Source: Bilabrum cf. latius
Lineage: Eukaryota
NCBI GenBank assembly: GCA_965178125.1
Contig: OZ237735.1
Coordinates: forward strand, 2,232,001 to 2,296,000
Length of the DNA stretch: 64,000 nucleotides
Direction: 5' to 3'
Under the pieces are notes generated by a model. The model searched no databases. It had not been told where the DNA came from and was given only the letters and a program-made list of their open reading frames with translations. Below, one piece after another: positions 1 through 64,000 of the stretch. Position numbers and translations under genes: made by a program. Every line of letters begins with the position of its first letter. Position 1 is the first letter of the stretch.

Positions 1-720
1 GTAACTAGGACGGCTGGGTGAGCAGTTGCATTCTCACAACAGTATCAGCAGGCCACCTGAATACACGTAAATCAGGTGCGCAAACAACTAATCGTGTGAA
101 ATGAATGGTTCGCGGAAACTCTTCGTCTGTGTCAGGCTCCATCGCAAAACCTGCAGTAGCAGCCCAACGAACAGCGGAGCTGTCAGAGTCGTCGGACGAA
201 GAATGGATGCGGCTATCAGAGCACAAATGAAAGACGTGGAGGTAAGGCCACGTGCTGATCCTAGAATTGTCCAAGACTTGCGAATCCGATGGTGCTGGAT
301 AGACTAAGTGAACGCCACCCAGGTAGCGGAGACTATCAGTACGATAGCATCCGGTGCTACTGCCATGAACCAGTCTCCGAGGTTTTCATTCTTGAAAAAT
401 CCAGCTATGCGCCAAGCAATCAAGCTCCCACTTGTCCCAGATTCGGCGAGAAGGGCTTGAAATATGACGTGCAGCAGGCAAGCGATAGCTGCAGTGCATG
501 TGGACACCAGCGCAACAATGTACTGCTACTTCGGCTTCCGGCCGAAAAGGCTCAACGGAGACGAAAATACGGGAGCTAACCCGAATGACGCAATTGCAAG
601 CATGCCATAGACAAGAGAGAATATGGATGGGCGCACCGCAGCGGCAGCCACAAGAACTACCCTTGCTACCCAAGTCGATATCAGGTATCCCTGCGGGGAT
701 ACACGAGACCGTCTGGCCAT
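1..720 (-). CDS. Piezo-family mechanosensitive ion channel, N-terminal part (gene runs off the window start)
   Basis: ATG at 720. One frame joins ORFs 526..726 and 304..507 through TAGs at 526, 304 and 88. The multi-TM sequence (AAAVRPSIFSLVYGML...LLHVIFQ...WFMAVAPDAIVLIVS...ASILRPTTLTAPLF...YSGGLLILL) resembles the Piezo N-terminal helices (RLVAPDLGILVVS; HPSALSSVY). A probable GTGAG intron donor at 37 removes the TGA at 34-36. Confidence 0.65.
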
Positions 721-1102
721 GGCCACTTTGGCTTCAAATGCGTCTTATTGGCTTGCGAGTATCTCAGACCAGTCAACTGTGCTTGAAAACGCGGCGGCGA
801 TCACTGGATTCCGCAACTGCAAGGTGTGTTTCTCCTCAGACACAAGCTCCTTCGAGACCAATTGCCGATTCAACAATGTCTTAATAGGTATCTGTATTTC
901 CGAAACCTTGATTGAGGGGCAGTTTATTGCCCCAAACCCACTCAGATTTGCATGCCAGCGCCTGGTCTTTTTGCCGATGATCTTCGCACGCAACAATTAT
1001 TTGAACAAACCAGATTTCAGTACCAGCCTTTGGCAGCCGTATACTCAGCATTCAATACTAGTACGACGCCCTTTATTTCCCCAATTCGTTGATAGTTGTG
1101 TT
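721..1102. promoter_or_regulatory. Divergent intergenic region between the Piezo-like and RNF25-like genes (putative bidirectional promoter)
   Basis: AT-richer ~380-bp gap between head-to-head start codons. No specific motif identified. Confidence 0.4.
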
Positions 1103-2803
1103 ATGGTGTTGTCTATCAGGCAAGATGTGCAGGATGAGCTAGATGTGATTCAAGCGACCTTCCCACAAGGTGACTGCGAAGTTCTACAGGAACTGAGGGA
1201 AAATGCCTCAACACATCATGATGGATTGCCAACGTGGCCGCATCTAACATTAAAATGCATTCTGCAGCCACGAGATGCCATGACAACCAGCGGTCTGCTG
1301 TCTCGACGAGTGACAGCAACCATGTATCTCGGATTTGGATATGCAAAGTATCCCGACGCAGAGCAGCTGCCCGTATTCGTATCCTCAGAAGGAATTGGTT
1401 TGGAGCCACGCCAGCAACAAGTGGTAGCTGAGGCTGCGAGGCGAGCAGCACAAGCCGGCCTAGGCAGCACGTGTGGATGGGCAGTGGTCGCAGCTGCGAG
1501 TGAGGAGCTGGAACGGCTCGTAAAGAATCCACAGTGCGCATCTGCGTCACGAGATAGGGTAGAACGTGCAACCCTCGTGCTGCCTTGCATGCATGTTAGC
1601 CACGCCCGCTGCTGGCACGCATGGACCGCCGCACACACGGATCTTTGGCGCACAGGAAAGGCTGGACGAAGTGCAATGGAGCGTATCAAGTAGAGAATTG
1701 TGGCGGAGCTCGGCTCGGTGGCAGAGTAGCAGCATTCAGTCGACCAGGCTCGCAAGAACGCGCAGGCCAAAGCTGCTGCCACTTAGCGCGCCAAAGGTAT
1801 CGTATCAGGTTTTAAAGGTTCGATTGGGAAGCTCCAGAAAGACATGGAAGATATGAAGGGCAAGCACCGCGACCAGGCAGGGCAAGAGCTGGCAAGCCTT
1901 CAGAGCCGCTTGAGGAAAGCAGAACACACTCTCAGCAGCGCGACCAAGTCGCAATCAGGTGCAGAAAGAGAGCTTGCACGGCTTTCAGAGAGGCTCAGTG
2001 GCGCTAATTTGCCTGCATTTACTGTTGCTGGATCAAGGGCCGCCTCTTCTGGGGCTGGTGCAGCGGATCCTGGGGCCACCGAAACAGCAGCCGTGGGTGG
2101 TGACTACACGGGGCTAGAGCAAACAGCCTGGGCAGAGGCTATCAGCTCGCTCGGGACACCGTGCCCGGTGTGTCGCCGCGAGGTTTCTAATGCGACGCAA
2201 ACGGACGATGCTAGAATTCGCAACATGTGGATAGTCGTCGAAAGATGTGCCTAGTCCTCGCCCGCCCAGCCGACGTCTCTGGCGTCGTCAACAGGCGCGG
2301 CAACAGACAGCGGAAAAGTTGGAGACACAACAGGCGCAGGCAAAGGCGCCTCTTCGAAGAGAAGACGCCGAAAACATGCAGACTCCAGCGCGACGCCTGC
2401 AGAATCAGAGGCATAGCCGAGGCCACAGCGAAGCGAGGCAACTGCTAGTGCACAACCTTCGAGCGGTGCGGCTGCAGCTAGCAGCAAGACATCAGCTGGC
2501 ATTGATCGGAGACAGGCAAGGAGGCTTCGAAGGCAGAAGCGCAAGGGGAAAGGCGCCGGAGCAGCAGGTGCGTCAGAGGCCTCCACTCTTCCAGAAAGCG
2601 GGTAGTCGCAGTCGGGGTGTGCTGCTGCTGCTGCTGCGTCTGGGGCCTCCAGCGTACCAAGGGAAGGGGACGGCGAAGATGAAGAGGAGGATATGGAAAG
2701 TGTTCTCCGTGCTTGGGCCGCGAAACGCGAGGAGCTCAACGCATCGTTGGAACGCCAGCGCAAGTGCCGAGGTATCTTTGATGAAACTGCAATCGAGTCT
2801 TGA
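1103..2803 (+). CDS. RWD + split RING E3 ubiquitin ligase, RNF25-like (~566 aa with TAG=Gln)
   Basis: ATG 1103 to TGA 2801-2803 in one frame with 6 in-frame TAGs (e.g. 1691, 1727, 1784, 2252). It has an RWD-type start (QDVQDELDVIQATFP, YPD), RING halves LPCMHVSHARC and TPCPVCR, and a C-terminal LERQRKCRGIFD resembling the RNF25 RQQERGGIID motif. Confidence 0.65.
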
Positions 2804-2856
2804 TGCCCACAGCATGGAAGCTGCCGTTTCCTGATATTGAATAACTTGAGTCTAAT

Positions 2857-5800
2857 TCAATCGTCATTGCGTTCGCCCGAAGCATCCAAGCCCGAGCGCT
2901 TGCCTGCATCGCCGTCTGAAGCGTTCTGGTCGGGATCGTGAAGCCCGTCTTTAGGTTCTCCGGACTTGGAGAGCAATGAATCTGCCTACCAGACTGCGTC
3001 CAACACCGATCCGTCAGAGAAGCTATTAGCTGATCTATCGTCATCACTGGGACCGTCCAGCTCCTCGGCCAACCGAGCCAATGCTCGTACAGCCCCACTT
3101 GCTTGATTTGAGCCGTGTCTGGCAGCGCTGTGGTCGACACCTCGCGCTGGTGACACGTCGCTAAGATCAGAGGCGAGCTCGCTGCCATCGCTGGACGATA
3201 GATCGATCTGCAGGTTTGTCGCGTAGTCCATAAGCCCCAGCAGGTCCCTGCTCTCCTGCATGCCGTAGTCCTAACGCCGAGCCTACGATGTCTTGGACCG
3301 GCGATCTTGCCGCACCGGCCTTCTCCCCTTCTGTGCTTTGGATGCCATCGCTCGCGTTTGGCTCTGCTTGGCTTTGCCGAGCGTCTGGGACTTGGATGAT
3401 GACAGTCGCTTAAGGTGCCGTAACACGGATTGCTGCCGTTTTGCGGCAACTCGAGCGCTGCTACTCTTCCGCAGGACTGCATATTCAACGACGCCATCAG
3501 CAACCGAAGACCTTGCCGTGGGCCTTGGCTTGCTCTTCTTGCGTGTGGCTGCCTTCCTTCCAATATGCCTTGTATTCCGTTTCCTGCTTGAACCAGTTTC
3601 AGGGCCATAAGTAGTCTCGCGCAGCCTTTGTGTCCAGCAGTGCACGCTCTCGCCCTTGCTGGGGGCATCATCGAACGAGGCTTCGCTCCAGGCTTGATGC
3701 GATCCACCCGTTCTCCTAAGCTTTGCAAGGCGTTTTTCCTGGCTAGAAAGTCTACTGGAGACTGCCAAGACCTACAGCTTGCGAACATCAGCCTTTGAAC
3801 CACGGGTTCTACTCTTCGACCTGCTCTTCCTTGCAGTCCGGGCGCGGCGCCGCCTTGCCGCCTTGAAGCTCGCAGCCTTGGCGGCTCGCGGCTAGTCAGA
3901 ACCAGCAGAATTCATACTTGGGTGTTTCTGTGCAAGCTATGCGGCCGCATGCTGCCCCTGAACCAGAGTTTCATCTCTTGGTTGCTCCCACGGCTAGAAA
4001 TCGGTCTCGATCCGAACTCGCGCAGGCGATGACGAGCTCTGATTGGGCCGAGCGCTTGCCTTCTCGTTTGTACTGGAAGCCTCCAGATCAACCTTGAAGA
4101 CTATAGATCGTGATGGACTTGAAGAGGTCACTTGCAGAGTATGCTGTGCGATACTGCAGCTGTTGCTGTCCTGGGTTGGCACCTTGGAGCCGCCACCGTA
4201 GCTCGCACCTCGTTGAGGTAGTGACACGCGCGGCTCTTGCAGAAGAGCCCCCCTCGCAGGAGAAGCAGCTGCATTGCTGGTTTTGCCTCGACCACTGTCA
4301 AGTGCAGCATCCTCCATGCCGGTGCTTCTTGCCGTGTCGTCGAGGACGTGATCTGAAGCAGGAGCAGTCGACTGCACAAGCGTGTATTCCTGCTTCTGTT
4401 GCTCCAAATCCTCATCCGATTCTACCGCAACCGCATCGAATTTGGTTGAATCGATCGCTGCAGTGGCAGTAGGCAATCTAGGATTAGTGTCACTCCCCCG
4501 GAGGTTACCTGCACTGGTCTGTAACCAAGCATGCTGCTGTAAAACATCACTGTCTTCGTCTGGCAGTTGCATTACAGCACCCGCACCCTCGTTTGAATGG
4601 CTGCTGGACTCAAACTGAGATATATTGCCCTGCATCAAATGCTGCTACATTGGTGCAACCTTACCGTGGTCAGTGGAGTGCAAATCGGCAGCCTGCTAGT
4701 CGGAGTTCGTGCGCTGATTCAATGCCTTGACCATGAGGTTTAGGTGGGCTCGCATCTTGGCTGCTTGCAGTGATGATTTGCTGCCAACTTGCTGCGTTGC
4801 AGATCTATTGGCCCCATACCATGCCGGCACTTGGCCGGGCACAACGGCAATTCCAGCTGTCTGCAACTCTTCCATCTGCTACTGCCTGATTGCACCCCAT
4901 GACGCGCCAATTGACTGCAGGCGATCATGCGTCGCAGCAACGTCACCATTTGGATCTAGTTCGCTGCCTTGAGAGGACTCGCTGCAAGCTGGAGCTGCCT
5001 AATGCAGAGGTTTCATGCTGGCCTGCTGATTGGTTTGGCTGGCTTGCACCTTCCCAAAAGGAGCGTGGCAGGCGGCTTCGGTGCTTTGACAAGACTCGTT
5101 GCAGGGCGCTTCCGCTTGTTTCAAATGGTCGCCTAGGTCCGATACTTGGCATCGGTCGCTGGCTAAGTGCCCTGAGTCCCGCGTCTACGTCACGGTCTTC
5201 TTCGAAGGTGTGCGCCGTGGAGAACGACTGCTTCCCTACCAAGTCCGCTGCACCCTTACCGATGTCCTTGTTGTCCTCGAGGTCGGACTCCCCCTCGTCC
5301 TGTGACTAGCTTCTGAACGACTGGTCTGCCAGGCCAGAGGGCTATTGATCACGCTCGTGGGACTTCTGCTCCGCATTGAAACAGCGTCTTGCAGCCTCTC
5401 GCTGCTCGCTAGCTCTGCCAGGCCCTGTGCAACTTGTGGTTTCAGCGTCGATAGCATGAATCCTTCCGCGCCAGATCCCACTTCGGTGTTTCGGAGAGCG
5501 CTATGCTTGCTCCTACTGGCCTGAAGTGGCGACCTAGGACCTGTCGCGGTCTGCCGAAAATCCAATCTCTGCACTGTGACTGCCTATTCGATACTCGTAT
5601 CCTGAACGTGGGGACTAGTCTCTTCCGAAATAGCCTCTCCAGATTCACCATGGCCTTGAGGCTGTGAAGAGCTCTCTGCGTGTTGAGCTGCCTGGCGGCC
5701 AGATTGGGAGGATGCGCTGTCTATAGCAACACCCATCGTTCTACCAATCGGCTAACTCTGCACAGCTGCGGTTCGTTGCTCGGAGAGTATGCGTAGCGCA

Positions 5801-8800
5801 GCCTGGCTTCGTTCTAGGAGAGCTTGAGTCTCGGAGTCGATGTGCTCTGGAACATCGACGTGCGGGCGAACAGACAAATCAACGGGCGCAGCCGGAGCAA
5901 GGGGGTGCAGCGTAAGCTTGACACCTTCTTGCGTTCTAGAATCAGCATCTATTGCCAACGGTTGTGCCGCAGCCTGCGAAGCCACCACCAGTCGTGCTGC
6001 TCGGCCGCTTCGTTCAACGGTGGAAGTGCTTGGCTGGCGGTGCGCCTGCGCGTGAGCCACAGCAAGACGGACAGCAGATTCATACGAGGCTCTCTTCCCT
6101 TTGCCAGAGTCTGCGCTCTCTCCTGAGGCAGGATAGCTGCTCCCTTGCAAGACTAGCGATGGAGAGGGTGATGCGGGCCGGGACGGGGCAACATCTGCCT
6201 CTGCGACGCTTGCGTCGCACTGGAGCGGAAGGCCACTAGATTCACCCTACTTCGTATCGTTGGAAACGGCTTGCTACTCGAGAGCTGAACGTGTACGAAC
6301 TCCAGATGTGCTTGCCTGCTACAGAGCAGCAGTGACACCTCGTTGGTGGCCAGCATGCTGAGCGTTAGGGGACTGCTGCTGCTGCTTGTACATGACAAGC
6401 GTTCCAGATGATGTCTACAGCTAGAACAAAACGTTGTCAGACCCCCCTACAGTCTAGAATGCGGTAGCTTCACTTTGCTGCAATGATGGCTGAGGCTACG
6501 AATTGCCAGTCGGAATGACAGCGCGCTACTCGTGATGAACTTGCGCTGGCTGTTCTCCGATTGCAGCGAGCAGCATGCTGGTGCGATCCATAGTCTTCGA
6601 CGCTGCAGCAGCCATCCTCTGCTTTCGCGAAATAGAGCTTTCTTCGCTATCATCAGCAGACTAGGCTCGCTCAGCTGGCGCTGCTTGCGCAGATGACATG
6701 AACGACGACAGCTCAAGTTGATGCGTAGCAAGAGACCTGGGATAGGCTGTTCCAGAAGCTGCTGGTACTGCTGCTGATCTATTTGACTGTGTAGTTCCTT
6801 GGGGCGGCGTTGCTTGGACGCCCACGCTCTGGTTGGCTTCGTGTCCATGATTCTTTCTGGCCTGTTTCCAGTGTGCCGCCCCGGACACGTGGGTTTCGGG
6901 CACTGGCTCGCCAAATCGCTATGCAGCCTTGCTCTGAAGCTCACCAGGGCCGCCAGATGACCGATCATCAAGCCCAACCCACATGGAGACGGGCTCCTTG
7001 TGCTTTGCTTGCTGGGTGGCAGCACCACTAGGAACGAGCGGCGGGGGCACGTATGTACTATACGAAGGCGTCCATGCGGCGCCCTTTGCACCGTTGCTAC
7101 AGCCTACTTCAACATCACCAGACCCGATGACTTCGTGGTCGTTACGACTCCCAGTCCCACTCAGTAGTGGTGCACGCATCCGGGGGGACCCAATCTCGAG
7201 AGCTGCTCCATCGTCACCTATGGCAGCTTTCGCGGCCGAGCCGGATAAATCTACCTACTGCTGCTCATGCAATCGGTGAGTATCTGCTGTAAGCTACCGT
7301 GGCGGGGGCGGTGGGGGTGGCCGCTGCATCTTCCATCGGTGCGACAAGCTGCTCAGTCCTGCCCTTTGATTCTCCAGTCCAACAGCCTCTTGTACAGCTG
7401 GCAGCGGTGAGAGGAGTGCTGCGTAGTCACTTTCCTCCCTTGGACGCCCTTCCACCGAATAACCTGCTGCTGCTGGGAGTACCTGCTGCTAGACTTGATT
7501 GGTTGGCTCCTACTGTGCAGCCCCAAACTGTAGCGATCGCATGGCAGCAGCAGCTGGCGATAGCATCGACCTTTTGGATGCCATGGACGATGCACTGGGC
7601 GGTGAGGACCTCCAGTGTGCGTTAGACTGGTAGCCAGACGCAATCGAGTCAGTTTCGATGCCACCATCATGCTGTGGTGTTCTTGTTGGTCCTCCATCGG
7701 CCAGCATTCCATACATTCCCCGGGCAATGCTGTGCTGCGAGCCACCGTGGTGAGGCTGCGATGGCGGGCTAACACCGGTGCGCCGGGCAGTGGAAGTTGC
7801 ACCGGCCTTGTCTTGCATACGGGCCAGGGCTCTCTTGAGTGCGGCCGAGAGCTTCGCAACCTCGCTGCTGTCTCCTCCCGTAAGTCTACCATGCAGCCCG
7901 TTGCCAAGGACCTACGGCTATGCAGTGGCAGGCTGCGTGGGATTCACCTCTTTGCATCGGTCCGCCTCATCCATGGAGTCTGAAGGTTCAGTCATGGCCG
8001 CCGCCGGGCTTTGCATACCAGCTACGACTTGGGAGCTGTCCATCTCGCGCTGCCGCCTCGGACTTCGTCCTTTAGCGTGCTGACCTATCTCATCGTCTGC
8101 CTCGAGCAGCTCCTCCGCCTAGACCACGGCATCAGGTTGCATCTTTGGCGGAGGAGGTCTGGCAAGTAGAACGTCTCCTGGTCTCCCTTCCGAGTCCCGG
8201 ATCTACTTTGCGAAGAATGCCTCGTTGCGCTATTGCTGCTGGACGCGGGCACCAACTGATCGCCACTTCGATTTAGAAGTTGCACTTGTTCTCTTGGAAG
8301 GTTGCCCATTGGTCGAGGCAGCACCATCATCATCACCGCTACTGCCGACGATGTCACGCCATGGAGGACGAGAATCTGCCAAAGCACTGTTCCGACCAGC
8401 CGATCGAGTAGATCGCCGTGCACGGGACTGGACTAATTTGCTAGGCTATTTCGGCCTGATCCGATCCGGCTTGGACGGTTCAAACACAACGAGCTATGTG
8501 CTCGCGTTATAACCAGGGTCTAAGTTTGGTCGCAGCGATTCAGCGAATGAGACTCGTCTGGTGCGTTTCGGGCGTTTGCGTGTGCGACTGCCCTGCAGGA
8601 TACCGGTTCTCTATTCCTCTTGATGCTCGACTGGAATAGCAAGCGCACTGGGATCCAACGTGCCGTGTGATTGACCAGTCAAGTAGCTTTGCTGCTAGTC
8701 TAAAGTCGAAGCCTCCGCAGGCTGCCTCCCTTCCACGTGCAGCTGCATGCGCGTTGCCATGGACAAGGCCAGCGCGTTGCAGGCGTCTCGCTCGTGTTCG

Positions 8801-19325: not shown

Positions 19326-19503
19326 TGTTATGTTTGAGGCTCTCAAGCAGTCATGGGTTCCAAGTCAGGAGAAACCTCTGGGAAACACAGATATGGTATT
19401 ATTAATGAAGTAAGGTGTTAATAGTGGAACCCACGTGCGCTCGCGTCATTCTTTCCTCGAATCCTCGCACAAGAGCTTGCAACTCTCCAACAACGCAAGT
19501 AAA
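19326..19503. promoter_or_regulatory. Short divergent intergenic region (putative bidirectional promoter)
   Basis: 178-bp AT-richer gap between two head-to-head genes that both start with a signal peptide. Confidence 0.45.
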
Positions 19504-22023: not shown

Positions 22024-22181
22024 TCGGCCTCGGTCCGAACACTGAGTGCTTGTAAATGATATTGTGGAAAAATAGATGACCTGTACTGATACTGCATGAT
22101 ACCAAAATGATATAGATGGTTGATCTAGTCACTTAAAATAGCAATTGACGTTGCAGTTCGTCTCGCGCATCCAGCCCCTCA

Positions 22182-52353: not shown

Positions 52354-52494
52354 TTCTCGCGGATTGAATTCATGTAGCAAGCGAAAATATGGAGCCGGCA
52401 CCTACGGTGAACTTCAAAGGAACGTTCGATATTCAAAGCTTGCTTCGCCTGTTCGGCGCCTTGAATCTGCACATTCCAAATCAAATTCGTGTTT

Positions 52495-55400
52495 TTAAGA
52501 CAAGTCAATCAGCCCGGCACTTCCCACTACGGCCTCGTTCAGCTTTTCCCGCAGCACCATGATCGTTGAGTAGTCCGGCACTTTGAGCAGGTGCGAGCAC
52601 GTGCTGGCGCTGGGCAAGACAAGATCATGCGGGTTGAATTCGTTCTCAGCACCCTCAGACATGTGACGAGACACAAAAGCACTTGGTGGCCTAGATAATC
52701 CTGCAGTGCTTTTCCCACCGGCCGCGCCGGAGCTGCCGCTGCTGCTGCCGCTGCCGCTGCCGCTGCCGCCCGCGCTCCCATGCGGCACCGCAGGCGCGGG
52801 CAACTCCACCACCCGGCCATCGAGCCTGATAAGCTCCCCACCATTCATCCCAACCCTGATCCAACGACCATCTGCACTCCTCACGCGGCGACCACCCAGC
52901 TCCTCCGGGTCCTCGTCCTCATCAGAGTCATGGCCGTCGCCATCCTCGTCGTCCTCGTCCATGTTGCCACCTCCAGATTCGTCGCTTTGCACATCGATCG
53001 GTTCAGCAGAGGACGCGACCCCTCCTGCTGCGCCCCGCACCTGCATAGACAGCCACTACGGGAGCTCCTTCGCACCCACCGTGAGTGGGGGATCCAGAGC
53101 AGCTAGTCCGCCGGGCGGGAGGATGGGGGACCCAGTGGCGAACTGCAGGAATGCGCGGCGCTGTAGCTGGGGCATTTCCATCATCAGCTCTCGCACGTTC
53201 TTTACCACTGAGCTTGACGTGAAGTAGGGCGGCCTAGCCTTCACGTGCTCTTCAAGATCCTGCAGCGTCCAGTGCACGGTGCTGCTTCCGCACAGGATCC
53301 GAACCATCTCTTGAGCTTGCAGGAGCGGAATGGCCGGGATTGACATGACGTCGCTCATGCCATCCAGCATTGCCTGCAGCTGAGGCCGGACACCGTCCCA
53401 GGCGATGTGCCGGCCCCAGGCATCTACGTACAGGTCGACGTCGTCCGCAGCCAGGTCGGGATCCTCCCAGTCTGTCTCGGCGTGAGGGTCCTACGGACCC
53501 AGCAGGCACCAGTCTACCGCCTCTGGTGAGGATACTGTAGCCCGAGGCCGTCCTTTAGTGCCCATGATTTCATCGCTGCTGTCATCTTCGTCAATAGCAG
53601 CTGCTATCTCAGCATCGGCACGGACGGGGCTCGAGGGCGCCGAGCTGCCCTGGCTCAATCCCAATGAGCCCTTCCCGCCCGACCTCTTTGGCTGAAACTA
53701 TGAGGACTGAGATGCGCTTGCCTCAGAAGTTGCTTTGGCGGGGGATTCCGTCGTATCGTGCAGACTGCTTGCCGTGCTGCGCAGGTGCTGTCGGCTCATC
53801 GCCTCCCGCACAACGGGCTCCAGGTCGGCTCTGGCGCCTTGCACGTGCATGTTGAGAGACCCGTCGCGATTGCACAGGAAAGGCCTCGATATTAGCTTCG
53901 CCATGCGCTCACGAGCCAGCACCAGCGGGTGGGACGAGGCCAGGGGTGGCGCTCCTTCCCCTCTGAACGGAAGCAGGCTGGAACCAGTCAGGGGTTCACA
54001 CCACTCCAGGTAGAGGTCATCGACGGAGGGACCAGCATCGGCAAGGGCGTTGCTTTTACTCGCGCTAGCGGCGCTTGCGGAGGCACCGTTGCAGTCCTCG
54101 AGCTTGGCTCTTGCCATGGCACCCTCCGCCTTCGCGTTGGCTGCTACAAGCATCTGCTGCATGGATCGCAGCCGCAGTCCTCCTTGAGATGCTGAGCCGC
54201 TGTCTTCATCTACTGGGTCATCGCTCATGGCAGCTGCCGCAGTTGTTTCGATCGTCTTTTGTGGAACAGAAGCAATTGACTCCTTCAAGCTTGCAATCTT
54301 TGCCTCGATCTCTGCAACCTCTGACTTGGCAGCCAGCACGTTGTCAAGAAGCTCAACCGCTGGCGAGCCACCCAACCTGACGTGCGCCTTGACTAGCGCA
54401 AGCTCATCTCGCCTCGAAATCACGCCAGCAGTCTTGGCGACGCGCAACTTGTGGCGCACCTCAGCGGCCGCCAACAGGCCCGAGCCGACCGCGGGGTAGT
54501 ACTGAGTCAGCACTTGCTTCACGAAATCCCGCTCGAAGGCAGGGTACGTCAGCCTCCAAGGGCCCGCTTCGCTCCCTTGATCGTCACCAGGCACACGCAA
54601 GCTGTATAGTCCCTTCCAGCCCCCAGCTCGCGCCATGGAGGCGAGCATGCCCTTCACAGAGTCTTCCCTTGTGGCAGTGATTCCATGTTCACTTGCAATC
54701 CCAGCCAGCATCATCATGATCTTGATGGCAAGAGGACTCAGCTGGATAGGCAGCACCTGCTGGTCCATCATCGCTCTCCCAACGACTCTGCCAAGCGACC
54801 GAAAGTGCGCTTCGACGGCGTCCCGCGCCCGAGAGAATGGCCTCACAGGCAATGGCGCTGGAAACAGACCAGCAGGGTGAGACGCGACAGGATCGTCCCA
54901 TTCATCAATGCCAGGCGGGGCGTCGTTTGCCACTGCGCTACGATCATCTTCGTCACTCATGGCGCCCATGGTTGCACCGGCTGCCGTCGCAGAAGCAGCC
55001 GATGAGCTCGCTGCCGATGAGCTCGCTGCCGATGAGCTCGCTGCCGATGAGCTCGCTGCCGAGGAGGCCTTCGTTGGTGCCACTGCGCTCGCCGGGCCCC
55101 CTTGCGTGACGCTTCCAGTGGACGCGGCAGCGGTGGCTGACTCGCTTTGGTCTGAATGCCACAGCCGCAGGATCTACGTGGCCTTACTAGACTCGGATCG
55201 TCTCAATAGAGACTCCCATACGGTTGGAGTGACATCAGGGTGGGGCAGGGCACGATACCCGCTGGCATACCTGCGTAGTCTGAGCTTCAGTGCTGATGGC
55301 TTAGGATGAGAGCTCTACGCTACAGATTTCGATACAAGCTCAGGCTACTCCTCAACAGCTGCAGCCTTCGATGAACGCCTGCGTTTCTTCGTGGGCCGGC

Positions 55401-58400
55401 TGGACGCCTTGGCATTCGACCGCGAGCTGCGTGCACTGTCTGGTGATCCCAGTGACTCTCTGTCTGCTCCCACTGTAGAATCATCATCACTAGGCAGTAG
55501 AGCAAGACTGTGGGCAGCGACTGCTATTCGCCTCGGGGACGATCGTGGTCGCTTCCGACTCCTACTCGATTTTGCCTTGTCCCTGCCACTCCAGAGGCCC
55601 TATGCTCCTAAACGCAGGAACGCCGCAAGCTCATTGTCGCGCCCTCCGTTGTTCGACAGTGCGGCAACGATCTGTCTGCACTCGTCAGCTGCCGAGGTGG
55701 TCGGGACCTACAGGCTCAGGCAAGAAGCAGCCTGCGCGAGGGCGGCATATGCCTCCCGGTTGACGCCAGGCCCGTGCCCGCGCTCCCCAGAGAAACTGAA
55801 CGACACCATGCCTTGCCGAGCAGAGAGGGGGGAGGCGCCGTAGCGCACGAGGCCCGCCAACAACGCCCCCGCCGCCACCAAAATCGAGCGGTTGCGCTGC
55901 CGAGGCGGCAGCTCTATCCGGCAAGTCTGCAGCCGCCGCTGCATGAGGTTGAGCTGGGGTGAATACGCCCAGCCGCGATCGAGCCTGGATGGAACTTCGG
56001 CTTCTCCGATCTAGTTGATTTTGTGAGCAACGTATCTCCAGGAGTACTTGAAGGGGTGCTCAGACATGCCGGGCGCGTACCCGATCCAGTCAGCCATATC
56101 AGACCCCTCACAGACCTTGACAAGCTTGATACCACTCGGCCCGTACTGTACACTCTACATTGACTCACGGACCACGCGCACCGCGTATTTCGCCTGGTCC
56201 GACATGACCACCGTGCCCGAGAGCTTCCTGGCTAGCATTCGGATGCGCTCAATGGAAGCGCCTTGCAGAGCGACTGCCGCTGGGGAAACGTTGTCGACAT
56301 CGCTTGGCAGCTTACGGAAAACGCCAGCAAAGAACGCACGGGCATTGTTGACGTATAAAGGCAAGTCGGTCTGCTCTTGCGGAGAGACTTCAGATGGCTC
56401 TGCTGGCGCCGTCGGCGTCATTCCCGGCGTTGCAGTTGCCACTGCTCTGGTTGCAAGCGACTATGCAAGCGACTTTCGGCGTTTGCGGGACTTCTTCTTG
56501 CCAGGTATGGCCTCCTTGCCGCCTTCACCAGCTATCTGCTGCTCCGCAATGGCTATCCACTCGTCCAAGCGTCTCAACGAAAGCCGGCAGGCACCTCTCA
56601 TCAGGCCCCTGAGCTTGTTGTACCTGTCCCGCATGAGTTCTGCTCTGGACTCATACAAGCCCTTAATGGCCTCCGCCTGAGCAGAACCTACCTCAATGCG
56701 ATCCCTCGCAAACTGCGCGCATGATTCACTGTACCGCTGTCCGCCGAATGCGATGGCTCGCTGGGCCACCAGCCTCAGTGAGGCCGGCAGTAGAGACGGA
56801 GCATCCCTAAGAACACCGAGAAGCCAGCCAGGCACCAAACCTGAGGTACAGGCCAGACCGTCCGCCAGCTGAAGGCGCAGACGATTTGACAGGTAGGGGC
56901 TGTGCGGCGTCAGCGGGATCTTCATGCACGCCGGCCTGCTGACAGCATCCAATGCAATTGCGTCGACGCGTTCAAGGCTTAGGTCCCCACTTTCACCGAG
57001 CATAACCTGTGCGATCTTCTGAGCAGTGCAGTCCCCTGCAGCTGCTAGCTTTGCGGCAGCCGAAGCTTTGTGAAGGGTGTGACCGAGAACTCGCAGCCCC
57101 CGAATTCCGTACGTCTGCCTACCCATGGCAAGGAGGTCTTTTGGGGGCAATCCCTTCGACGACAGTGTTGCCTGCATCGCCTCAAGGCCACTCGATAAGG
57201 CGCGCAGCTCCTCACGGGCGTCATGGCGCGACGAACGCTCGAACTCATTGTGTAGTTTAGGATCGTCAGACTGCGCCTCCTTTGGGAGATTCTTGGGACT
57301 ACTTGCTCCAGCCACGGCCTCTGTGCCCTCGGGATCAGTTCTAGCGCGCTTCTTCCCGATCCCGCCACTCGATTCTCCGCTGGTGACTGCTTGCTACTCA
57401 AGGTCTGAGCTGCCGTCACGAGATTTCAACTCTGCCTCCTGCTGGGCGATTGTGCCAGTAAGTGCGGCCCTGTTGACCTCAGCTAAGTAATCAGAGATGC
57501 TGTCAAAATCAGCAAGGACTGGGCAAAAGTCAACGACGAGCGTCGGGCCGCCAGGAACAAGCCACGATGGGTAGTCGGTCTCAGCATGGTTTAGCAAGGA
57601 GAGAGTAGCAGCGCCCTACCTTCTTCCTTGCCATGTGTGAGTCCAATTGCGGACCATATCGGGCGGGCACCCGGCTCCCTTCATGTTTGCGGCAAATTTT
57701 CGAGATGTTTGGCCGCTTTGCGCGAAGCGAGCGTACGCAAGAGTTGGATCTGATTGCAGCTCACCAAGCCACCAGTACATTTGGGCAGCGGACTTGCAAT
57801 CTGCGAGATAGCCGCGCCACTTGCCCTACGTGTCTGTTTTATCCACTTTGAATTGCCACAAATTCGATTGCTTCTAATGCTGACGAGCCAAAAATTCGCG
57901 AAGTGCCCTCTGCTGCACCTCTGCGAAAGTGACCAGCCTCGCTAGGAAGTTGGTGTCTTGATGCGGCTTAGTAGCGTCGACAAAGTTGCAACCAGAGACT
58001 GAACGATTCTAATCGTTGAACGCACTGGACGGCGCGTCGGTTCTGACAGGGACAAATGGCGTGCATGCCAACGGAGGGGCGTTCGGCTTTGAGCTCCACC
58101 GCAGCGAAAGTCGCATGAGCAATCGGACATTCGGCCGCAAATAGCGGCTTAATGCAGCACCACCGTGCTGTCCAGTCGGGAATACCGCCCGATTGGCATA
58201 TCTATCAGAAGCTGATGGATGGATGTAGCTGCTGCGCGGCCTTCCAGTGGCGCTGAGCTCGCTACTTGCCATAGGAGGCCGCCCTAACGCCGAAGACCAG
58301 AAGGATCGCCTTCCGATTGAAGGAACTTCGTCTACCTACTCCAAGCACTTTGCATCCTATGCCATGTCACCGACTGCGCTAGCTGCCGGGGATGCTGGAG

Positions 58401-61400
58401 ACAGCTGGGCTGATCTGGTTGCGAAAGCTGCCGCGGAATGTACGCCACACACAGTCCAACGTTCACCGAGGAACTAAACACTGTAGCTGGTCGGACTAGA
58501 CGAGTCATAATTGCCAATGCACCCACGATTGGCACCTAAAGACGCGCTGTCGAAGGAGAACGGCGGGGCAAAGCCGTCCCTATCGGGCTGTAGCCGGCTG
58601 TAGTCAAAGGAGCCTGATCGAGTCGCGGATAAAGGGCTGAACCTATCCCTAGATGAGCTGGACTTTGACTCTCCGTTTGGATCTGGTAGAAGCGCAAGTT
58701 CTGACATGAACGGGGCACCAGAGGGCGAGCAGATTGAGAGGGGAGATGCAAGGGAAGACAGCGTCTGGTCTACCAAGCTCTGAGCATCGGATTCGGACAG
58801 CGGGTCGTCAACCTTCACGAGCATCAGGCCTTCGTCCCGTACGCTCAGCCTTGGAAAGCTTAAACCCGTGCTGATGCTGGCCTCGAAGCTCGCCTTGTCG
58901 CTGGCACTCAGGGGCACGTGGGTGTTAGGGTCTTGCACAGCCTCTATGGCCTCCTGAACAGCAAAATTCTTCCTCTAGTCTGCTTCTCCAAAAGACGCCA
59001 GCTCAAGAATTCGCGCAGTTCTACTGACAGCGTTATGTTCAACATGGCAGCCCATAGATTCTCGATGAGAATCGGAGCTCCTATAGAGGACTGGCGAATT
59101 GGCATGGATGCGAAGTCGGCTCTTATTCGGCCCCACTGCTTTCGCATTGACAGTCATTGGCTCGGAAACTCGAAGGTCTACTTCTTCCCAGCGATAACCA
59201 GTAAGCGCAGTCAAATTAAAGCCACCAAACACCCTATGCTGACGCAACAGCTGCAGTGTGGCTTGCATGGTCACATTGGACAAGGACAGACGCAATATCC
59301 GTGCTGCATCTGCCATCGCTGTGCGCTGCAAGTCGGCAAGTTGTGGTATCTCACGAGATCTCCAATCATCTTCCAAAGCAGTTCCTCGATCAAGTGCAGA
59401 ATGAAGCGCGTTTGTACCACGCCTCGCGGCTGATTGAAGCTGCAAAGCCACTACTTGCCATCTAGCTTCGAAAGGAACGCCTTGATTCCGCAGCCAATCA
59501 GCATCACTCTCCTGCACGTGACGTGCAGTAGCTGCCCATGAATCCTTCGATAGCTTGCTTTTGGCAGTCGTTGCTTTTGATGGCTTCTTTTTGGGTGGCT
59601 GCTCGGGGACAAACTTAGACGACTGCCTGTCAGACGGTATCCGGCCGGTCACAATGCCATTAGATAAGGCCGCTTGGACCAGCGATCGAGACTTCGAAAG
59701 GACCTCAACGTTGAACATAGAACCTAAATACACACTGCCTACGGATTCAGATGACGTGGGGCCGGATGACGCAAGCTACGCCTAGATAGGTTGCGTATTG
59801 GACGGAACCCCAGCCAGCATGCATCGGTGAAGCCGCATGCTCGCAGACACAGGCACCCTGTTCAAATACGCTGGCTTCTGCAGAGGTGCTATTCTGTAGT
59901 CTATGCGGGGCTAACACGTCTTCATTGCATTCTTTCGAAGCTTAGTCAACGTCTCCTCCAACCGGATTGGTACCCAGGCCCACTAGTTAATAGAATCCTC
60001 GTCATCCGATTCAACTTCTTCTTCCTCATCTTCGTCTTCATCCTCAGTACTCGAGGGGCTACGCAATCTAGCAGCCCCGACGATTCCCCGACGAATCACG
60101 AACCTGAGGGCATGAATTGGTAAAGGCACCCAAAATGGACCCTTCGATGCATCAGAGAGTTGAACGAATGCGTGAGTGTTGTAGATGAAGCCATCCATAG
60201 TGTCTGAGCACCACATTCCCGGCTGGATACCCGGAAGGTTTGCTCCCATCTCTATCTCACTCATCTGGTTGATTTGGTGGTGCTACTACCCATGAGGAAT
60301 TCCTTGATGATGGTGAGCAAACCTGGAATTCTCAAGAAGCAGAATAACCGCTTCCTCCCAGCGGTCTGAGTACGGGCTGTGCACTGATACCACGTCTCCA
60401 ACTCGAAGGCCCATGCACCATAGGCTCAGCGAGCATGCGTTGAGGGCGGAAGGATGGTGGCTTGAGACAACAATATCCTTGTCGGGAAGACTATCCAGAG
60501 AGGTGCCCAGGAGAGGGTCCGTTGTTGACAAATTCATGGTACCAGGCAGCAGACAGGAGTACCTGCTCAATCTTGCGATGTCATTGACATTGCTCAGAAC
60601 GTCAACATCGTTCCTGACTAGATCGGAGAAAGGCAAGTCCTCTACTTCATCGCCTTCAGCTTCTGGGACTTGGCTCTATTCCGGAAGCATGGCAAGCGCA
60701 TTCAGCATCAGCTCACAAGATCGCAAGCTACCGGTTTGAAGCCGCTCAACTGTGTGCAAATAGGAGCCACCGACCCTGCACTTGCTCTGGCTTGCCATGA
60801 GGCCTGCGTCCCAGAGATTGTCTCTCCGCATACATGCCGAGGGCCGCATTGCTTCAAGTACTGCGAAAATTGCAGCAGTAGCGGTTTTTCGTGCTGAGAA
60901 TTGCAGCATTGAGGCCGGTGTCACGCACAAAACCAAGTCAGGCGCGCGGTCTAGCATTTCAAGCTCCTTGTCTCGAGACGCTCCCTTGCTTGCCTGCTTT
61001 CCCTTCTTTGACCGCGTCGTTCTCTTTGGCCCCGAAGGCGCACGGGTCACGATAGGAAGGCACTCGAGCTTTTCATTATCTCCTCCATGTTTCACCGTCA
61101 CGGTCTCGTCAGCTCGTTTCGCGCTGCTTTGGGTGGTCTCAGCCGGTGGGTCATCTGCCCCGGCACCAGAGGCGGGCCCTCCACCAGAGATAGCATCGTC
61201 CGGTGGGGCGCGCGTTTCAGAGATCTTCGAGATATCGCGAGAGTGGCGACTCAAGCTACCGGGAACGGGCAGGGTAACCCTTGTAGTACCCCAGCACTCC
61301 ATCTCGCTAACAGCAAGGTTTGTCCTGTATCGTTGCTATTCGATCCCAGCAAGGGATTCCCCTGGCGCCAGACTATCGTGGATGCGCCTATGGTCATCGG

Positions 61401-64000
61401 CGGTGAGAGATCGACTCCAAACGCAGCTGAGGGTCTTAGAATTGAAGTCAGCCGTCCTCACGGCGACCCAGTCTCCCGGCTATCCAGCAGGAACGATGGC
61501 CGTGATGCGGCCGCCATCGCGACTGGCCTTCTCTACGGTGATACCTGAGACGGATTTGCGGGTGAACGGGCTCAATCCTAGCAAGTACTGTTGATGACGC
61601 ATAGCCCCAACGAGGTCGTCTGCTGACGATGGCAGCTCGAATTGGAGCGTCGAGTAGTCTGCCTGACTGTTTAACAACGATGCTCGCAATCTCAATTCCG
61701 CATCGGTAGTCGATAAATTCATCGGCACCGAGACATCAAATGCCTAAACCGGTGCGATAGACTGTATCGGCGCTGTCCACTCCGTGGCAGGAGCTACAAT
61801 GCCAGGGCTCAGTCCAAGGTCGTGCGTGTCCTGGACCGCTAAACCACTTGCCCCTTTGAATGCTTCAGATGCGCCGATTTTCCATTCTTGCGCATGGACA
61901 CTCGAAACATCTACTGTAACCAGCATCGAGCGAAGCTGGAGCTACCTTGTGTCCAGAATCTCGACCGGCAGCGGTACCGCATGACGATCGGGCCTTGACG
62001 TGCTGCGAGATGCGCTTCGTTCAAGTGCAGCATCCAACTCGCTGCTCATTGGCTGAAACTTGTGATTGGTATCACGTTCGTGACTCTTGCAAACCGCTGT
62101 TCGAAAGCATTGCTCGTCTACAGTCAAAACTCGTTGATTTCGAGCTCCAGGCAACAGCTCGAATGGGTGATTCGCTGTAGATCGCACTGGTCGCACTGGC
62201 TCGTTAACAGTCCGCGGCACTATGAACGAAAATAGTCGCAAGGGTAGAGACCTGGCACACTGATCAATGTCTCTTGTCAACAAGGACACAAGAACCGCGT
62301 AGCCACGAGCAAGCTGCATGGAATGTAGCTCTGAATCGGCACGACCCTCCTTCATGGCAGAGGCAAGGACGCTTGCCAACTTTGAAAAAACGCGCCTAAC
62401 TCCCGACACACCGGTGCGCTAACTATCAGCGAGTAGGTGCTTCTTGATTCCGACCCACACTCTATTCGCCCAGGAGGCAATCGACAGGGTCGTCGAGCCT
62501 CTCATGATTGCACCGCTCGTAGAGACGAGTGGGTCGCCTTCCTCCCAAACAGCTGGGTCAACATTTGCAGCACCATCTGGCCCAGCGGGCGTATTGCTCC
62601 AACCCTTCAAGATAGAGGAAGTCACAGCCACGTCGTCTTGCACAGCTGCAGTTGACAAAAGAAGCAACAGTGACTTGCAGTGCTCCATGGAGCTGGACGG
62701 CTCCGCAGCAATACGGCGCGCAAGGCTGACACACAATTCAAGGAAGTCGTCGTGGCGTCCGGTGCTTTTCCGCAGAAGGCTAGAGACGATACTGACCATG
62801 GAAGATAAAGCATCGCTATGCTGCTGTAGCGGATGCTTCGGAACCAGGAGCCTCTTAGCATATTTCCACAGCTCCTGCTGTCCATAGGCTTCAGTGTAAG
62901 CAAAGGCGCCTGCCCTCAAAGATAGTAGCGAAGCTATTGATGGGGTTGCAACTGGCATGGACTGCCAAACTGCGCATGGCAGCCCGCACGAGTAGACCAC
63001 GGAGGTTTTCTTTTCTTCTGAGCAATCGTAATCGCACGATGGGCACCGCCCGAAGGATTTTGCACTGGACATACCGCACTCCCTGCAGACGTACTTCGTG
63101 TTGGTCTAGACTGCACCGTCAAGACGAGCCATGCTCTCAACTTTAATGCCCTCTCTAGCAGCGATGTAAGCCATAAGTGGGTTCAACTCTTGCTAAACTT
63201 TTGAATTGGTTGGCGAAGCCAAAAGGATCTCGCAAGCATCGCCCAACGCTTGCAATTCCAGCGAGACGACATCGTTCGGTAGCCGCGACATCGTTGAAGC
63301 GGCCTTCTCCATGCTTTCATGGGCAGTGAGGCAGGCGTGAAATTGTTTTGCGCACCTGATTAGTTCGGTCATCTCAGCAACGACTGACACACCAGACACC
63401 GACTCAGGCGCACTGGGAAGGCTGTCGAGATACATGTGAGTGCTGTTCCTGCAAGCGCCCTAGCTCCTCGGTGAGCATCCTGAGGAAGCTGAAATGACCG
63501 GACCGAGGTCAAACCCTGGCGTAAGTCGATCGCGGTACAGCTCATCATCCGAAATATCGGCCCCGGTTCTGAACGCTGCACAAGACCCAATTGGTGCAAA
63601 GCCACTACCTGGACCACCAACCTAAGTGGTAATTGCGGTGATTTCTGGTGGAGACCACATGCCCTCACCTATGATAGGCTGCGCACTGACGAAAGGTATG
63701 GAGGATCTGGGTAATTTCTCTTCGGCTCCGCTGGTCGTCACGCTTCGCACCTGCTACATGGATCCCACTGCGTGTCTGGCGCGATAGGCACCGTGCTGGG
63801 AGAGCCAAGCATCGACTTTAGCCATGGCCCGTACTGCCGGAGATGCAAACTATTGCTGCGATTTGTCAGCTCGCGGGGTGACTGGCCCCAAGCGTTCCAG
63901 GGCATCAGCCGAAGGAGGCAATCCATCCGAGAAGCAGTCGCTGCATGCGGACGCAATGGCATCCTCTACCAAGACGAATGGCTCCACGTCTACTTTCGAA
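52495..64000 (-). CDS. HECT E3 ubiquitin ligase, TRIP12/Ufd4/UPL3-like (>3,835 aa, 5' end beyond the window)
   Basis: About 18 ORF fragments lie in one frame with at least 25 in-frame TAGs and end at TAA 52495. The family signature YLSNRLRLQLADGL...VPGWL...APSLLP...R...AFG is present. HECT motifs are FSGERGHGPGVNREAY, GLFPAPL, FRSLGRVVGRAMMD, RRAFLQFATGSPILPPGGLAALDPPLTV and LPSASTCSHLLKVPDYS...DLS-stop. Confidence 0.88.
52731..52770. repeat. Imperfect (GCTGCC)n microsatellite encoding a Gly-Ser linker in the HECT insertion
   Basis: agctgccgctgctgctgccgctgccgctgccgctgccgcc encodes GGSGSGSGSSSGS on the minus strand. Confidence 0.7.
55001..55060. repeat. Coding minisatellite: four perfect copies of the 15-bp unit GATGAGCTCGCTGCC (AASSS repeats in the HECT protein)
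   Basis: Read directly from the sequence. The unit length preserves the frame. Confidence 0.9.

What the first reader, a model, noticed from the sequence alone, without database searches (positions are those of the whole stretch)
1..64000. Window-wide stop-codon reassignment: UAG read as glutamine in a GC-rich eukaryotic nuclear genome
Seen in the sequence: all 10 genes carry in-frame TAGs. Same-frame ORF fragments chain together for 7-22 kb, and every break I checked is TAG rather than TAA/TGA. Protein motifs continue across the TAGs. TAG also sits in Q-rich runs (K*QLEE, EEE*QRL, SQQ*F). Established knowledge: nuclear UAG-only-to-Gln codes (NCBI table 15 pattern) are rare, e.g. Iotanema spirale and a few ciliates, and most UAR=Gln codes are in AT-rich lineages. 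Inference: gene content, high GC and few short introns remind me of a heterotrophic stramenopile (bicosoecid/Cafeteria-like). I cannot confirm this, but it would be a lineage where I know of no such code.
Basis: partly seen in the sequence, partly recalled or inferred. Interest (0 to 1): 0.95.

Follow-up and report, generated by a model that had tools for sequence, protein, structure and literature searches.

The report
UAG codes glutamine in GC-rich eukaryote
This stretch of nuclear DNA comes from an unidentified GC-rich microbial eukaryote that reads the stop codon UAG as glutamine while still stopping at UGA and UAA, a rare variant of the genetic code known from only a handful of lineages.

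Summary

- **TAG is sense.** With TAG read as sense, the window resolves into nine gene-sized frames of up to 7,465 codons. They hold 158 in-frame TAG and no internal TAA or TGA in 20,309 codons. Making TAA sense instead changes nothing.
- **TAG means glutamine.**
  - The one TAG in spermidine synthase lies on a column that is Q in 119 of 119 covering homologues.
  - The TAG in the CS domain of a calcyclin-binding-protein homologue lies on Q of the human protein and of 27 of 45 homologues.
  - Against a divergent relative's contig (L001), 9 of 14 TAG-versus-sense codon pairs are CAG or CAA, in both directions.
- **TGA and TAA stay stops.** Window genes end 8 TGA and 1 TAA; L001 genes end 2 TGA and 2 TAA.
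- **Not an artefact.** Spliced contigs from three further runs carry the TAGs unchanged: 46 of 51 sites covered, none different.
- **Not tested.** No genome is held, so tRNA-Gln(CUA) and eRF1 could not be examined.
- **Lineage unresolved.** The stramenopile guess is neither supported nor rejected.

This is a new member of a known kind.

The parts
461..2803 (+). Stop-to-stop frame of 780 codons for an unnamed protein. It has 7 in-frame TAG and ends in TGA.
   Evidence: No Pfam family at E<=0.01. The start of the coding part was not determined.
2857..10074 (-). Leucine-rich-repeat protein frame of 2,405 codons. It has 41 in-frame TAG and ends in TGA. No Met precedes the repeats, so an upstream exon is likely.
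10716..19364 (-). Membrane protein with ephrin-receptor-like Cys repeats. The Met and signal peptide start at 19325. It is 2,869 aa, has 23 TAG and ends in TGA.
19627..22023 (+). Thrombospondin type-1 repeat protein frame of 798 codons. It has 13 in-frame TAG and ends in TGA. Its C-terminal 207 codons align to L001.
22182..44081 (-). Giant single-exon coding sequence of 7,299 aa. It has a signal peptide, about 4,000 aa of ephrin-receptor-like Cys repeats, one membrane helix and a long charged coiled-coil tail. It has 19 TAG and ends in TGA.
44465..44831 (-). Intron of 367 nt (GT..AG on the minus strand) upstream of the giant gene's Met. It is spliced out in contigs of runs X5, X6 and X7 but not in the DNA run X1.
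   Evidence: table 5.
45141..46272 (-). Calcyclin-binding-protein homologue with CS and SGS domains, 340 aa. It has two exons with an intron at 46148-46256, 2 TAG in the CDS, and ends in TGA.
45939..45941 (-). TAG codon in the CS-domain motif W-D-[TAG]. It lies on Q of human calcyclin-binding protein, on Q of 27 of 45 homologues, and on CAA in L001.
46434..47934 (+). Spermidine synthase, 399 aa. It has three exons with introns at about 46553-46639 and 47398-47611 (both GT..AG), 1 TAG, and ends in TGA.
46698..46700 (+). TAG codon on an invariant Gln column of spermidine synthase. The column is Q in 119 of 119 covering homologues, and the codon is CAA in L001.
48217..52353 (-). Secreted or membrane protein of unknown family, 1,378 aa from the Met and signal peptide. 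It has 9 TAG and ends in TGA. Its C-terminal 215 codons align to L001, which has 4 TAG there.
52495..63999 (-). TRIP12/UFD4-like HECT ubiquitin ligase, with its 5' end cut by the window. The frame is 3,834 codons, has 38 TAG and ends in TAA.
52495..52497 (-). TAA stop of the HECT gene. The alignment runs to residue 1480 of the 1,483-aa yeast UFD4 chain and leaves 3 residues in the query too.

Best explanation
The organism uses a nuclear genetic code in which UAG is an ordinary glutamine codon, making up about 15% of Gln codons in this window. UGA is the main stop and UAA also still terminates translation. A divergent relative (L001) shares the code, so the change predates their split.

The most likely mechanism is inferred from other UAG-only codes and is not shown here. 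A tRNA-Gln with anticodon CUA, derived from tRNA-Gln(CUG), would read UAG but not UAA. An eRF1 with weakened recognition of the third-position G would stop terminating at UAG.
For: **Shown: TAG is translated through.**
- There are 158 in-frame TAG against 0 internal TAA or TGA in 20,309 codons, and the frames reach 7,465 codons.
- Protein similarity to a relative continues on both sides of TAGs.
- Against L001, dN is 0.15-0.39 while dS is saturated or 2.4. This also holds downstream of the first TAG in each alignment.

**Shown: the residue is Gln.**
- Spermidine synthase column: Q in 119 of 119 covering homologues, with 1 gap among the 120. It is Q in the Plasmodium structure sequences.
- Calcyclin-binding-protein CS domain: Q in the human protein. 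Among 52 homologues, 45 cover the column: Q 27, L 10, A 4, E 3, S 1.
- Window versus L001: 15 aligned codon pairs have TAG on at least one side. They are 9 TAG versus CAG/CAA (5 with TAG in L001, 4 with TAG in the window), 1 TAG/TAG, and 5 others (GAT, CTT, GTG, GGC, AAG).
- In the same alignments ordinary Q pairs with Q 46% of the time, and E, K, L, R, S, T, A and Y pair with Q 4% or less. Q beats the next residue by 9.9 natural-log units with BLOSUM62 and by 19 with empirical frequencies.
- Of 5 protein fragments at 81-92% identity to the window, all held in Logan and presumably predicted with the standard code, 4 end exactly at a window TAG and the fifth at a window CAG.

**Shown: TAA and TGA are stops.**
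- Window gene ends: 8 TGA, 1 TAA. L001 gene ends: 2 TGA, 2 TAA. None ends in TAG.
- The TAA of the HECT gene falls at the family's C-terminus.
- If TAA were used as CAA is relative to CAG (229:677), about 53 in-frame TAA would be expected. None is seen.

**Shown: it is neither error, editing nor splicing.**
- Contigs of runs X5, X6 and X7 (two studies other than the DNA holder's) lack four GT..AG introns that X1 retains.
- They otherwise match the window, with one differing letter (57325 G>A, in X6) over the 19.9 kb laid.
- 46 of the 51 in-frame TAGs in that region lie inside the listed pieces.

**Inferred only.** The tRNA and eRF1 mechanism follows passages of PMC5304391 and PMC11687900.
Against: - Only two TAG sites in the window sit on strongly conserved columns. 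Most TAGs lie in variable or disordered regions.
- 5 of the 14 informative pairs with L001 are not Gln.
- Within the HECT protein, relatives show G, E or Q, Q, L and V at five window TAG sites.
- An internal-paralogue test on 15 TAGs in the Cys repeats was inconclusive. K ranked first and Q second, 2.2 log units behind. The method recovers true Q in only 94 of 300 control draws.
- No tRNA gene was found in the window or in L001.
- No peptide evidence exists.
- Only 13 gene ends were seen, so occasional termination at UAG elsewhere in the genome is not excluded.
- The runs with spliced contigs are labelled as RNA only by guess, and X5 is labelled 'probably DNA'. Their RNA origin rests on the four intron-less joints.
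Confidence: 0.9

Rival explanations
1. Both UAA and UAG encode Gln (NCBI table 6, as reported for Amoeboaphelidium, ulvophyte algae, hexamitids and many ciliates). On this view TAA is simply too rare to be seen in a GC-rich window.
For: - Table 6 is the commonest variant nuclear code (passages of PMC11687900 and PMC5304391).
- TAA is the rarest stop triplet in the window, with 209 on the plus strand and 156 on the minus strand.
Against: - There are 0 internal TAA in 20,309 in-frame codons, against 47 and 80 in the shifted frames. About 53 would be expected if TAA were used as CAA is.
- Making TAA sense as well lengthens none of the five largest frames except by 27 codons after the HECT stop.
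- That TAA sits at the family's C-terminus.
- Two of four L001 genes end in TAA at positions matching the window's TGA ends.
Confidence: 0.03
2. UAG is a sense codon for a residue other than Gln, such as Glu, Lys, Leu, Ser or pyrrolysine, or it is decoded ambiguously.
For: - UAG=Leu and UAG=Ser nuclear codes exist (passages of PMC11687900).
- 5 of 14 codon pairs with L001 are not Gln.
- The internal-repeat test ranked K just above Q.
Against: - The spermidine synthase column is invariant Q, 119 of 119.
- The CS-domain site is Q.
- 9 of 14 pairs are CAG or CAA, whereas the other residues tested pair with Q 4% or less of the time. The likelihood gap to E is 9.9 log units and to K 12.3.
- The repeat test never classifies true K sets correctly, so its K call carries no weight.
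Confidence: 0.04
3. UAG has a dual, context-dependent meaning, as stop codons do in Condylostoma, karyorelicts or Blastocrithidia. It would be Gln inside genes and still a terminator at some gene ends.
For: - Such codes are known (listing and abstracts; figure-legend passage of PMC5304391).
- Only 13 gene ends were examined here.
Against: None of the 9 window gene ends and none of the 4 L001 gene ends is TAG. Every gene seen has a TGA or TAA at the expected end.
Confidence: 0.06
4. The TAGs are not translated. On this view they are sequencing or assembly errors (C>T at CAG), are removed by RNA editing or splicing, or the genes are pseudogenes.
For: Nothing beyond the prior that in-frame stops usually mean errors or pseudogenes.
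Against: - The same letters occur in runs of three studies, with one difference in 19.9 kb.
- Spliced contigs are colinear with the genome across 46 of 51 TAGs.
- TAG is the only stop triplet tolerated in frame.
- A relative at saturated synonymous distance has its own in-frame TAGs, and purifying selection acts downstream of them.
Confidence: 0.01

Closest known systems
Iotanema spirale (Fornicata) nuclear code: UAG=Gln, with UAA and UGA as stops (PMC5304391, passages read)
   Same: UAG alone is reassigned to Gln, and UAA and UGA are kept as stops. UAG is never seen as a terminator. UAG is a minority Gln codon: about 8% there and about 15% in this window (158 of 1,064).
   Different: Iotanema ends 104 of 119 genes with UAA and 15 with UGA. 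This window ends 8 of 9 with TGA. The window is 60.7% G+C. Nothing ties the window to fornicates. The T32G change in the eRF1 GTS motif proposed for Iotanema could not be looked for here.
UAG=Gln codes of ciliates: two phyllopharyngean lineages and Protocruzia tuzeti (PMC11687900, passages read)
   Same: The codon assignment is the same, and in-frame UAG is used widely across genes.
   Different: [quoted passage not shown] Here TGA dominates and G+C is 60.7%. The window holds a 22-kb intron-free gene and introns of 87-367 nt. By my recollection, which no call tested, these are not ciliate macronuclear traits.
UAR=Gln code (NCBI table 6) of Amoeboaphelidium protococcarum, ulvophyte algae, hexamitid diplomonads, oxymonads and many ciliates
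   Same: UAG is read as Gln.
   Different: TAA is not sense here. Amoeboaphelidium genomes are 40.5% and 39.9% G+C (Table 1 of PMC10608142), against 60.7% here. No NCBI protein above 51% identity turned up for the two conserved genes.
Other UAG-only nuclear reassignments: rhizarian exLh and some phyllopharyngeans (Leu), and Scotinosphaera (Ser) (PMC11687900 passage)
   Same: UAG and UAA are decoupled. A CUA-anticodon tRNA is expected.
   Different: The amino acid is different.

Membership tests
UAG=Gln, UAA/UGA=stop nuclear code (the pattern of NCBI table 15) | In-frame UAG inside conserved, selected coding sequences | tested here: met
   There are 158 in-frame TAG in nine frames. They include spermidine synthase, a CS/SGS protein and a HECT ligase. 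dN is far below dS against L001 downstream of TAGs.
UAG=Gln, UAA/UGA=stop nuclear code (the pattern of NCBI table 15) | UAG aligns with Gln at conserved columns and with Gln codons in relatives | tested here: met
   Q in 119 of 119 homologues. Q in 27 of 45, and in the human protein. 9 of 14 codon pairs are CAG or CAA, and Q is favoured by 9.9 or more log units.
UAG=Gln, UAA/UGA=stop nuclear code (the pattern of NCBI table 15) | UAA is not a sense codon and is used as a terminator | tested here: met
   No internal TAA in 20,309 codons. TAA ends the HECT gene at the family's C-terminus and ends 2 of 4 L001 genes. The sample is small, with 3 TAA ends.
UAG=Gln, UAA/UGA=stop nuclear code (the pattern of NCBI table 15) | UGA is a terminator, not a sense codon | tested here: met
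   No internal TGA. Eight of 9 window genes and 2 of 4 L001 genes end in TGA.
UAG=Gln, UAA/UGA=stop nuclear code (the pattern of NCBI table 15) | UAG is not used to end genes | tested here: met
   None of 13 gene ends is TAG. This is too few to exclude rare use.
UAG=Gln, UAA/UGA=stop nuclear code (the pattern of NCBI table 15) | UAG is present in the mature mRNA, neither edited nor spliced out | tested here: met
   Spliced contigs of runs X5, X6 and X7 cover 46 of 51 TAG sites with no difference at any of them.
UAG=Gln, UAA/UGA=stop nuclear code (the pattern of NCBI table 15) | A tRNA-Gln with anticodon CUA | not testable with these tools
   No genome is held for the window. No tRNA was found in the window or in L001.
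UAG=Gln, UAA/UGA=stop nuclear code (the pattern of NCBI table 15) | eRF1 altered in its stop-codon recognition motifs | not testable with these tools
   eRF1 is not in the window, and no genome is held.
UAG=Gln, UAA/UGA=stop nuclear code (the pattern of NCBI table 15) | Gln found at UAG positions in peptides | not testable with these tools
   No proteomic data are available.
UAR=Gln code (NCBI table 6) | UAA as well as UAG used as an in-frame Gln codon | tested here: not met
   No in-frame TAA, where about 53 would be expected by the CAA:CAG ratio. TAA sits at conserved gene ends.
   In the spermidine synthase tree the window and L001 form a long branch outside the 11-row stramenopile clade (SH-aLRT 99). 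The AU test does not reject joining them (p 0.176). The best named calcyclin-binding-protein hits are ochrophyte algae at 37-43% identity. No bicosoecid was sampled.
Aphelida (Amoeboaphelidium) | Genome composition and near-identical proteins in NCBI | tested here: not met
   Amoeboaphelidium is 40.5% and 39.9% G+C (PMC10608142 Table 1), against 60.7% here. The best named hits are 51% identity or less. TAA is not sense here.

The most novel reading that the evidence does not exclude
This would be an independent origin of the UAG=Gln / UAA=stop code, in a eukaryote lineage not yet known to deviate from the standard code. At least two species at saturated synonymous distance share it, and more distant environmental relatives exist.

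It arose or persists in a 55-60% G+C genome whose main terminator is UGA. That is the opposite of the AT-rich, UAA-terminating setting in which the known UAG-only Gln codes (ciliates, Iotanema) sit. Loss of UAG under AT pressure ('codon capture') would then not explain it.
Probability: 0.55. Interest if true: 0.85.

Novelty: new member of a known kind. Interest (0 to 1): 0.78.

Why it matters
**Rarity.** Nuclear codes that separate UAG from UAA are very rare. The passages I read list one fornicate, one rhizarian, one green-algal genus and a few ciliate lineages (PMC11687900).

**Why a new case helps.** Each new case tests how the translation machinery tells UAG from UAA, and which genome conditions allow a stop codon to be captured. 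A case in a GC-rich genome that terminates mainly at UGA would be a useful contrast to the AT-rich, UAA-terminating examples.

**Practical consequence.** Any gene prediction on this assembly and its environmental relatives made with the standard code is badly fragmented. The protein databases already hold such fragments, ending exactly at TAG.

Tried and rejected
**Tools and data not available.**
- No whole genome is held for the window. Assembly-wide codon inference and searches for tRNA, eRF1 and 18S were therefore impossible.

**Searches that found nothing.**
- ARAGORN on the window and on L001, and Rfam on the window, found no tRNA or other RNA gene.
- A PDB sequence search of the middle of the HECT protein found nothing.
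- The three TAGs in the last 400 residues of the HECT protein fall outside the aligned blocks.
- Scans of genome contigs and viral contigs with 1,199 residues of the HECT protein found no relative.

**Tests that were inconclusive.**
- The internal-paralogue test covered 15 TAGs in the Cys-rich repeats. Neighbour windows had Q enriched 2.5-fold, but the likelihood ranked K first and Q second. Bootstrap winners over 2,000 draws were K 752 and Q 312. Controls showed low power.
- The homologue search with the 2,882-aa membrane protein matched only the generic ephrin-receptor-like repeats. The best hit was a Triparma laevis protein. It gave no lineage signal and no alignable TAG sites.
- The lineage remains open from the spermidine synthase tree and AU tests.

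**Hypothesis rejected.** The aphelid idea was rejected on G+C content and on the lack of near-identical NCBI proteins.

**Sequencing runs.**
- No RNA holder is listed for the stretch. RNA origin of runs X5-X7 is inferred from intron-less joints only.
- Five of the 51 TAG sites in the laid region lie outside the contig pieces the tool listed. 92 further pieces were not shown.

**Literature.**
- Searches for a prior report of this code in a GC-rich non-ciliate found none.
- The library lacks most subscription journals.
- Supplementary tables of the papers read were not opened. They may hold G+C or stop-usage figures that bear on the comparisons.


Full report
**1. The observation**

The window is 60.7% G+C.

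Under the standard stops the longest open frame is 1,338 codons. If TAG alone is read through, frames of 7,465, 3,834, 2,882, 2,405 and 1,398 codons appear.

The controls behave differently. Reading TAA through changes nothing. Reading TGA through gives many frames of about 1,000 codons on both strands, as expected for GC-rich DNA, but no giant one.

In the nine frames I delimited (20,309 codons) there are 158 in-frame TAG and no internal TAA or TGA. The two shifted frames of the same DNA hold 157 and 153 TAG, 47 and 80 TAA, and 256 and 450 TGA. TAG therefore behaves like any sense triplet, while the other two stops are excluded. Eight frames end in TGA and one in TAA.

I count nine genes, not ten. 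At least five of the 158 TAGs lie in leader or intron parts of the stop-to-stop frames.

**2. What the genes are**

Pfam and PDB comparisons identify the following:
- a spermidine synthase
- a calcyclin-binding-protein homologue with CS and SGS domains
- a TRIP12/UFD4-like HECT ligase
- a leucine-rich-repeat protein
- a thrombospondin type-1 repeat protein
- two membrane proteins with ephrin-receptor-like cysteine repeats, one of them 7,299 aa in a single exon
- two proteins without a family

These are eukaryotic genes.

**3. Transcripts keep the TAGs**

Logan contigs of four runs were laid on 44100-64000. X1, a DNA holder at 100% of the sampled words, is colinear with the window.

X5, X6 and X7 come from two other studies and are labelled RNA only by guess. 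Each carries four joints that remove 367, 109, 87 and 214 nt with GT..AG ends on the gene's strand. So they derive from spliced RNA.

Joining the exons gives complete reading frames for spermidine synthase (399 aa) and for the CS/SGS protein (340 aa). Both end in TGA.

Over the 19.9 kb laid, only one letter differs in any run (57325 G>A in X6). Of the 51 in-frame TAGs in the region, 46 lie inside the listed pieces of these runs, and 16 of them in two or more runs.

The TAGs are therefore not assembly errors, not edited and not spliced out.

**4. Which amino acid**

Conserved columns:
- The only TAG in spermidine synthase (46698-46700) aligns with Q in the Plasmodium enzyme. It aligns with Q in 119 of the 119 homologues that cover the column. 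The 120th homologue starts downstream.
- The TAG at 45939-45941 lies in the W-D-Q motif of the CS domain. It aligns with Q in human calcyclin-binding protein. Among the 45 of 52 homologues that cover the column, 27 have Q, 10 L, 4 A, 3 E and 1 S.

A relative's contig: a metagenome contig, L001 (4,482 nt, 54% G+C), carries orthologues of four window genes at 55-79% amino-acid identity.
- Fifteen aligned codon pairs have TAG on at least one side. Nine pair TAG with CAG or CAA: five with the TAG in L001 and four with it in the window. One is TAG/TAG. Five are other codons (GAT, CTT, GTG, GGC, AAG).
- In the same alignments ordinary Gln codons pair with Gln 46% of the time, and eight other residues tested pair with Gln at most 4% of the time. 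Gln is the best assignment by 9.9 natural-log units over Glu with BLOSUM62 frequencies, and by 19 with frequencies taken from these alignments.

Fragments in the databases: five fragments at 81-92% identity to the HECT protein were found, all held in Logan assemblies (the 98-aa cluster also has an ENA member). They were presumably called with the standard code. Four stop exactly where the window has TAG, and the fifth where it has CAG.

Weaker or contrary points:
- Inside those fragments, five window TAGs face G, E (Q in a second variant), Q, L and V.
- A test using the protein's own repeat paralogues could not separate K from Q and has low power.

**5. TAA, TGA and TAG as stops**

No TAA occurs inside the frames. 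About 53 would be expected if TAA were used as CAA is relative to CAG.

The TAA that ends the HECT gene leaves three residues after the aligned block. The alignment likewise stops three residues before the end of the 1,483-aa yeast UFD4 chain.

In L001 the four genes end in TAA, TGA, TGA and TAA, at positions matching the window's TGA ends. No gene end in either sequence is TAG (0 of 13).

So this is the UAG-only pattern, not the common UAR=Gln code. Thirteen ends are too few to rule out rare termination at UAG.

**6. Selection and age**

Against L001, nonsynonymous distances are 0.15-0.39. Synonymous sites are saturated or, in one sub-region, at 2.4. This also holds for the parts downstream of the first TAG in each alignment.

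So the regions after TAGs are translated and under selection. The code is shared by two well-separated species. More distant fragments (32-45% identity to the HECT protein) exist in public assemblies, but without DNA their code cannot be read.

**7. Mechanism**

This is inferred, not shown. By analogy with the cases discussed in PMC5304391 (passages) and PMC11687900 (passages), two components are expected:
- a tRNA-Gln(CUA), one mutation away from tRNA-Gln(CUG), which would read UAG but not UAA
- an eRF1 with weakened recognition of UAG

Neither could be sought. No genome is held, and the window and L001 contain no tRNA gene.

**8. Which organism**

This is unresolved.
- The best named hits to the two conserved enzymes are only 37-51% identical. 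They are spread over chytrids, oomycetes, alveolates, a streptophyte and ochrophyte algae.
- In a spermidine synthase tree of 34 rows, the window and L001 form a long branch outside the stramenopile clade (SH-aLRT 99) and the opisthokont clade (91). They sit weakly (75) beside three long-branched alveolates.
- AU tests reject neither a stramenopile (p 0.176) nor a fungal (p 0.119) position.
- I considered the aphelid Amoeboaphelidium, reported to read TAG and TAA as Gln (passages of PMC6299283 and PMC5304391). I rejected it because its genomes are 40.5% and 39.9% G+C (Table 1 of PMC10608142), its NCBI proteins did not appear as close hits, and TAA is not sense here.
- The window also differs from Iotanema, where UAA ends 104 of 119 genes.

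**9. Novelty and verdict**

The kind of code is known: UAG=Gln with UAA and UGA as stops. Its carrier appears not to be any of the lineages for which it has been described. Seven literature searches found no report that fits. The library is incomplete, and supplements were not read.

I file it as a new member of a known kind. It has one notable twist: a GC-rich genome that terminates mainly at UGA.

My confidence that UAG is a Gln codon here is 0.9. The lineage and the molecular mechanism remain open.

Noticed in passing
window 22182-44081 (-); L001 647-924: The 7,299-aa single-exon giant gene lies between the thrombospondin-repeat gene and the calcyclin-binding-protein gene in the window. In the relative's contig L001 those two genes are only about 280 nt apart and no giant gene lies between them. 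So a 22-kb gene was gained or lost, or the region was rearranged, between the two species.
   Followed up: partly
window 47612-47934 (+); L001 3238-3624: Spermidine synthase has a third exon that adds a C-terminal extension of about 110 aa. The extension ends in a hydrophobic, Ala/Gly-rich stretch that looks like a membrane helix. It is conserved in L001 (60% identity over 102 codons). None of the PDB homologues aligns to it.
   Followed up: partly
window 52495-53060 (-): The HECT domain is interrupted by an insertion of about 140 aa. The insertion is acidic and Gly/Ser-rich. It lies between the block ending 'LTVGAKELP' and the catalytic-cysteine segment 'LPSASTC'. PDB homologues align on both sides of it but not across it.
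   Followed up: no
window 54980-55066 and 52722-52780: A 15-nt tandem repeat (4.6 copies) lies inside the HECT gene. A second spot lies near the gene's 3' part. At both places contigs of the laid runs break: X1 and X5 at both, X6 at 52781. They are assembly-fragile repeats.
   Followed up: no
proteins P0130-P0134, P0140: Public assemblies (JGI/IMG, ENA, Logan) hold fragments 32-45% identical to the lineage-specific middle of the HECT protein. This points to a wider, unsampled environmental clade around this organism. Their genetic code could not be read without DNA.
   Followed up: partly
window, intergenic spacers (2804-2856, 22024-22181, 52414-52494): Neighbouring stop-to-stop frames are separated by only 53, 158 and 81 nt, and the confirmed introns are 87-367 nt. 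The genome is compact despite encoding very large proteins.
   Followed up: no
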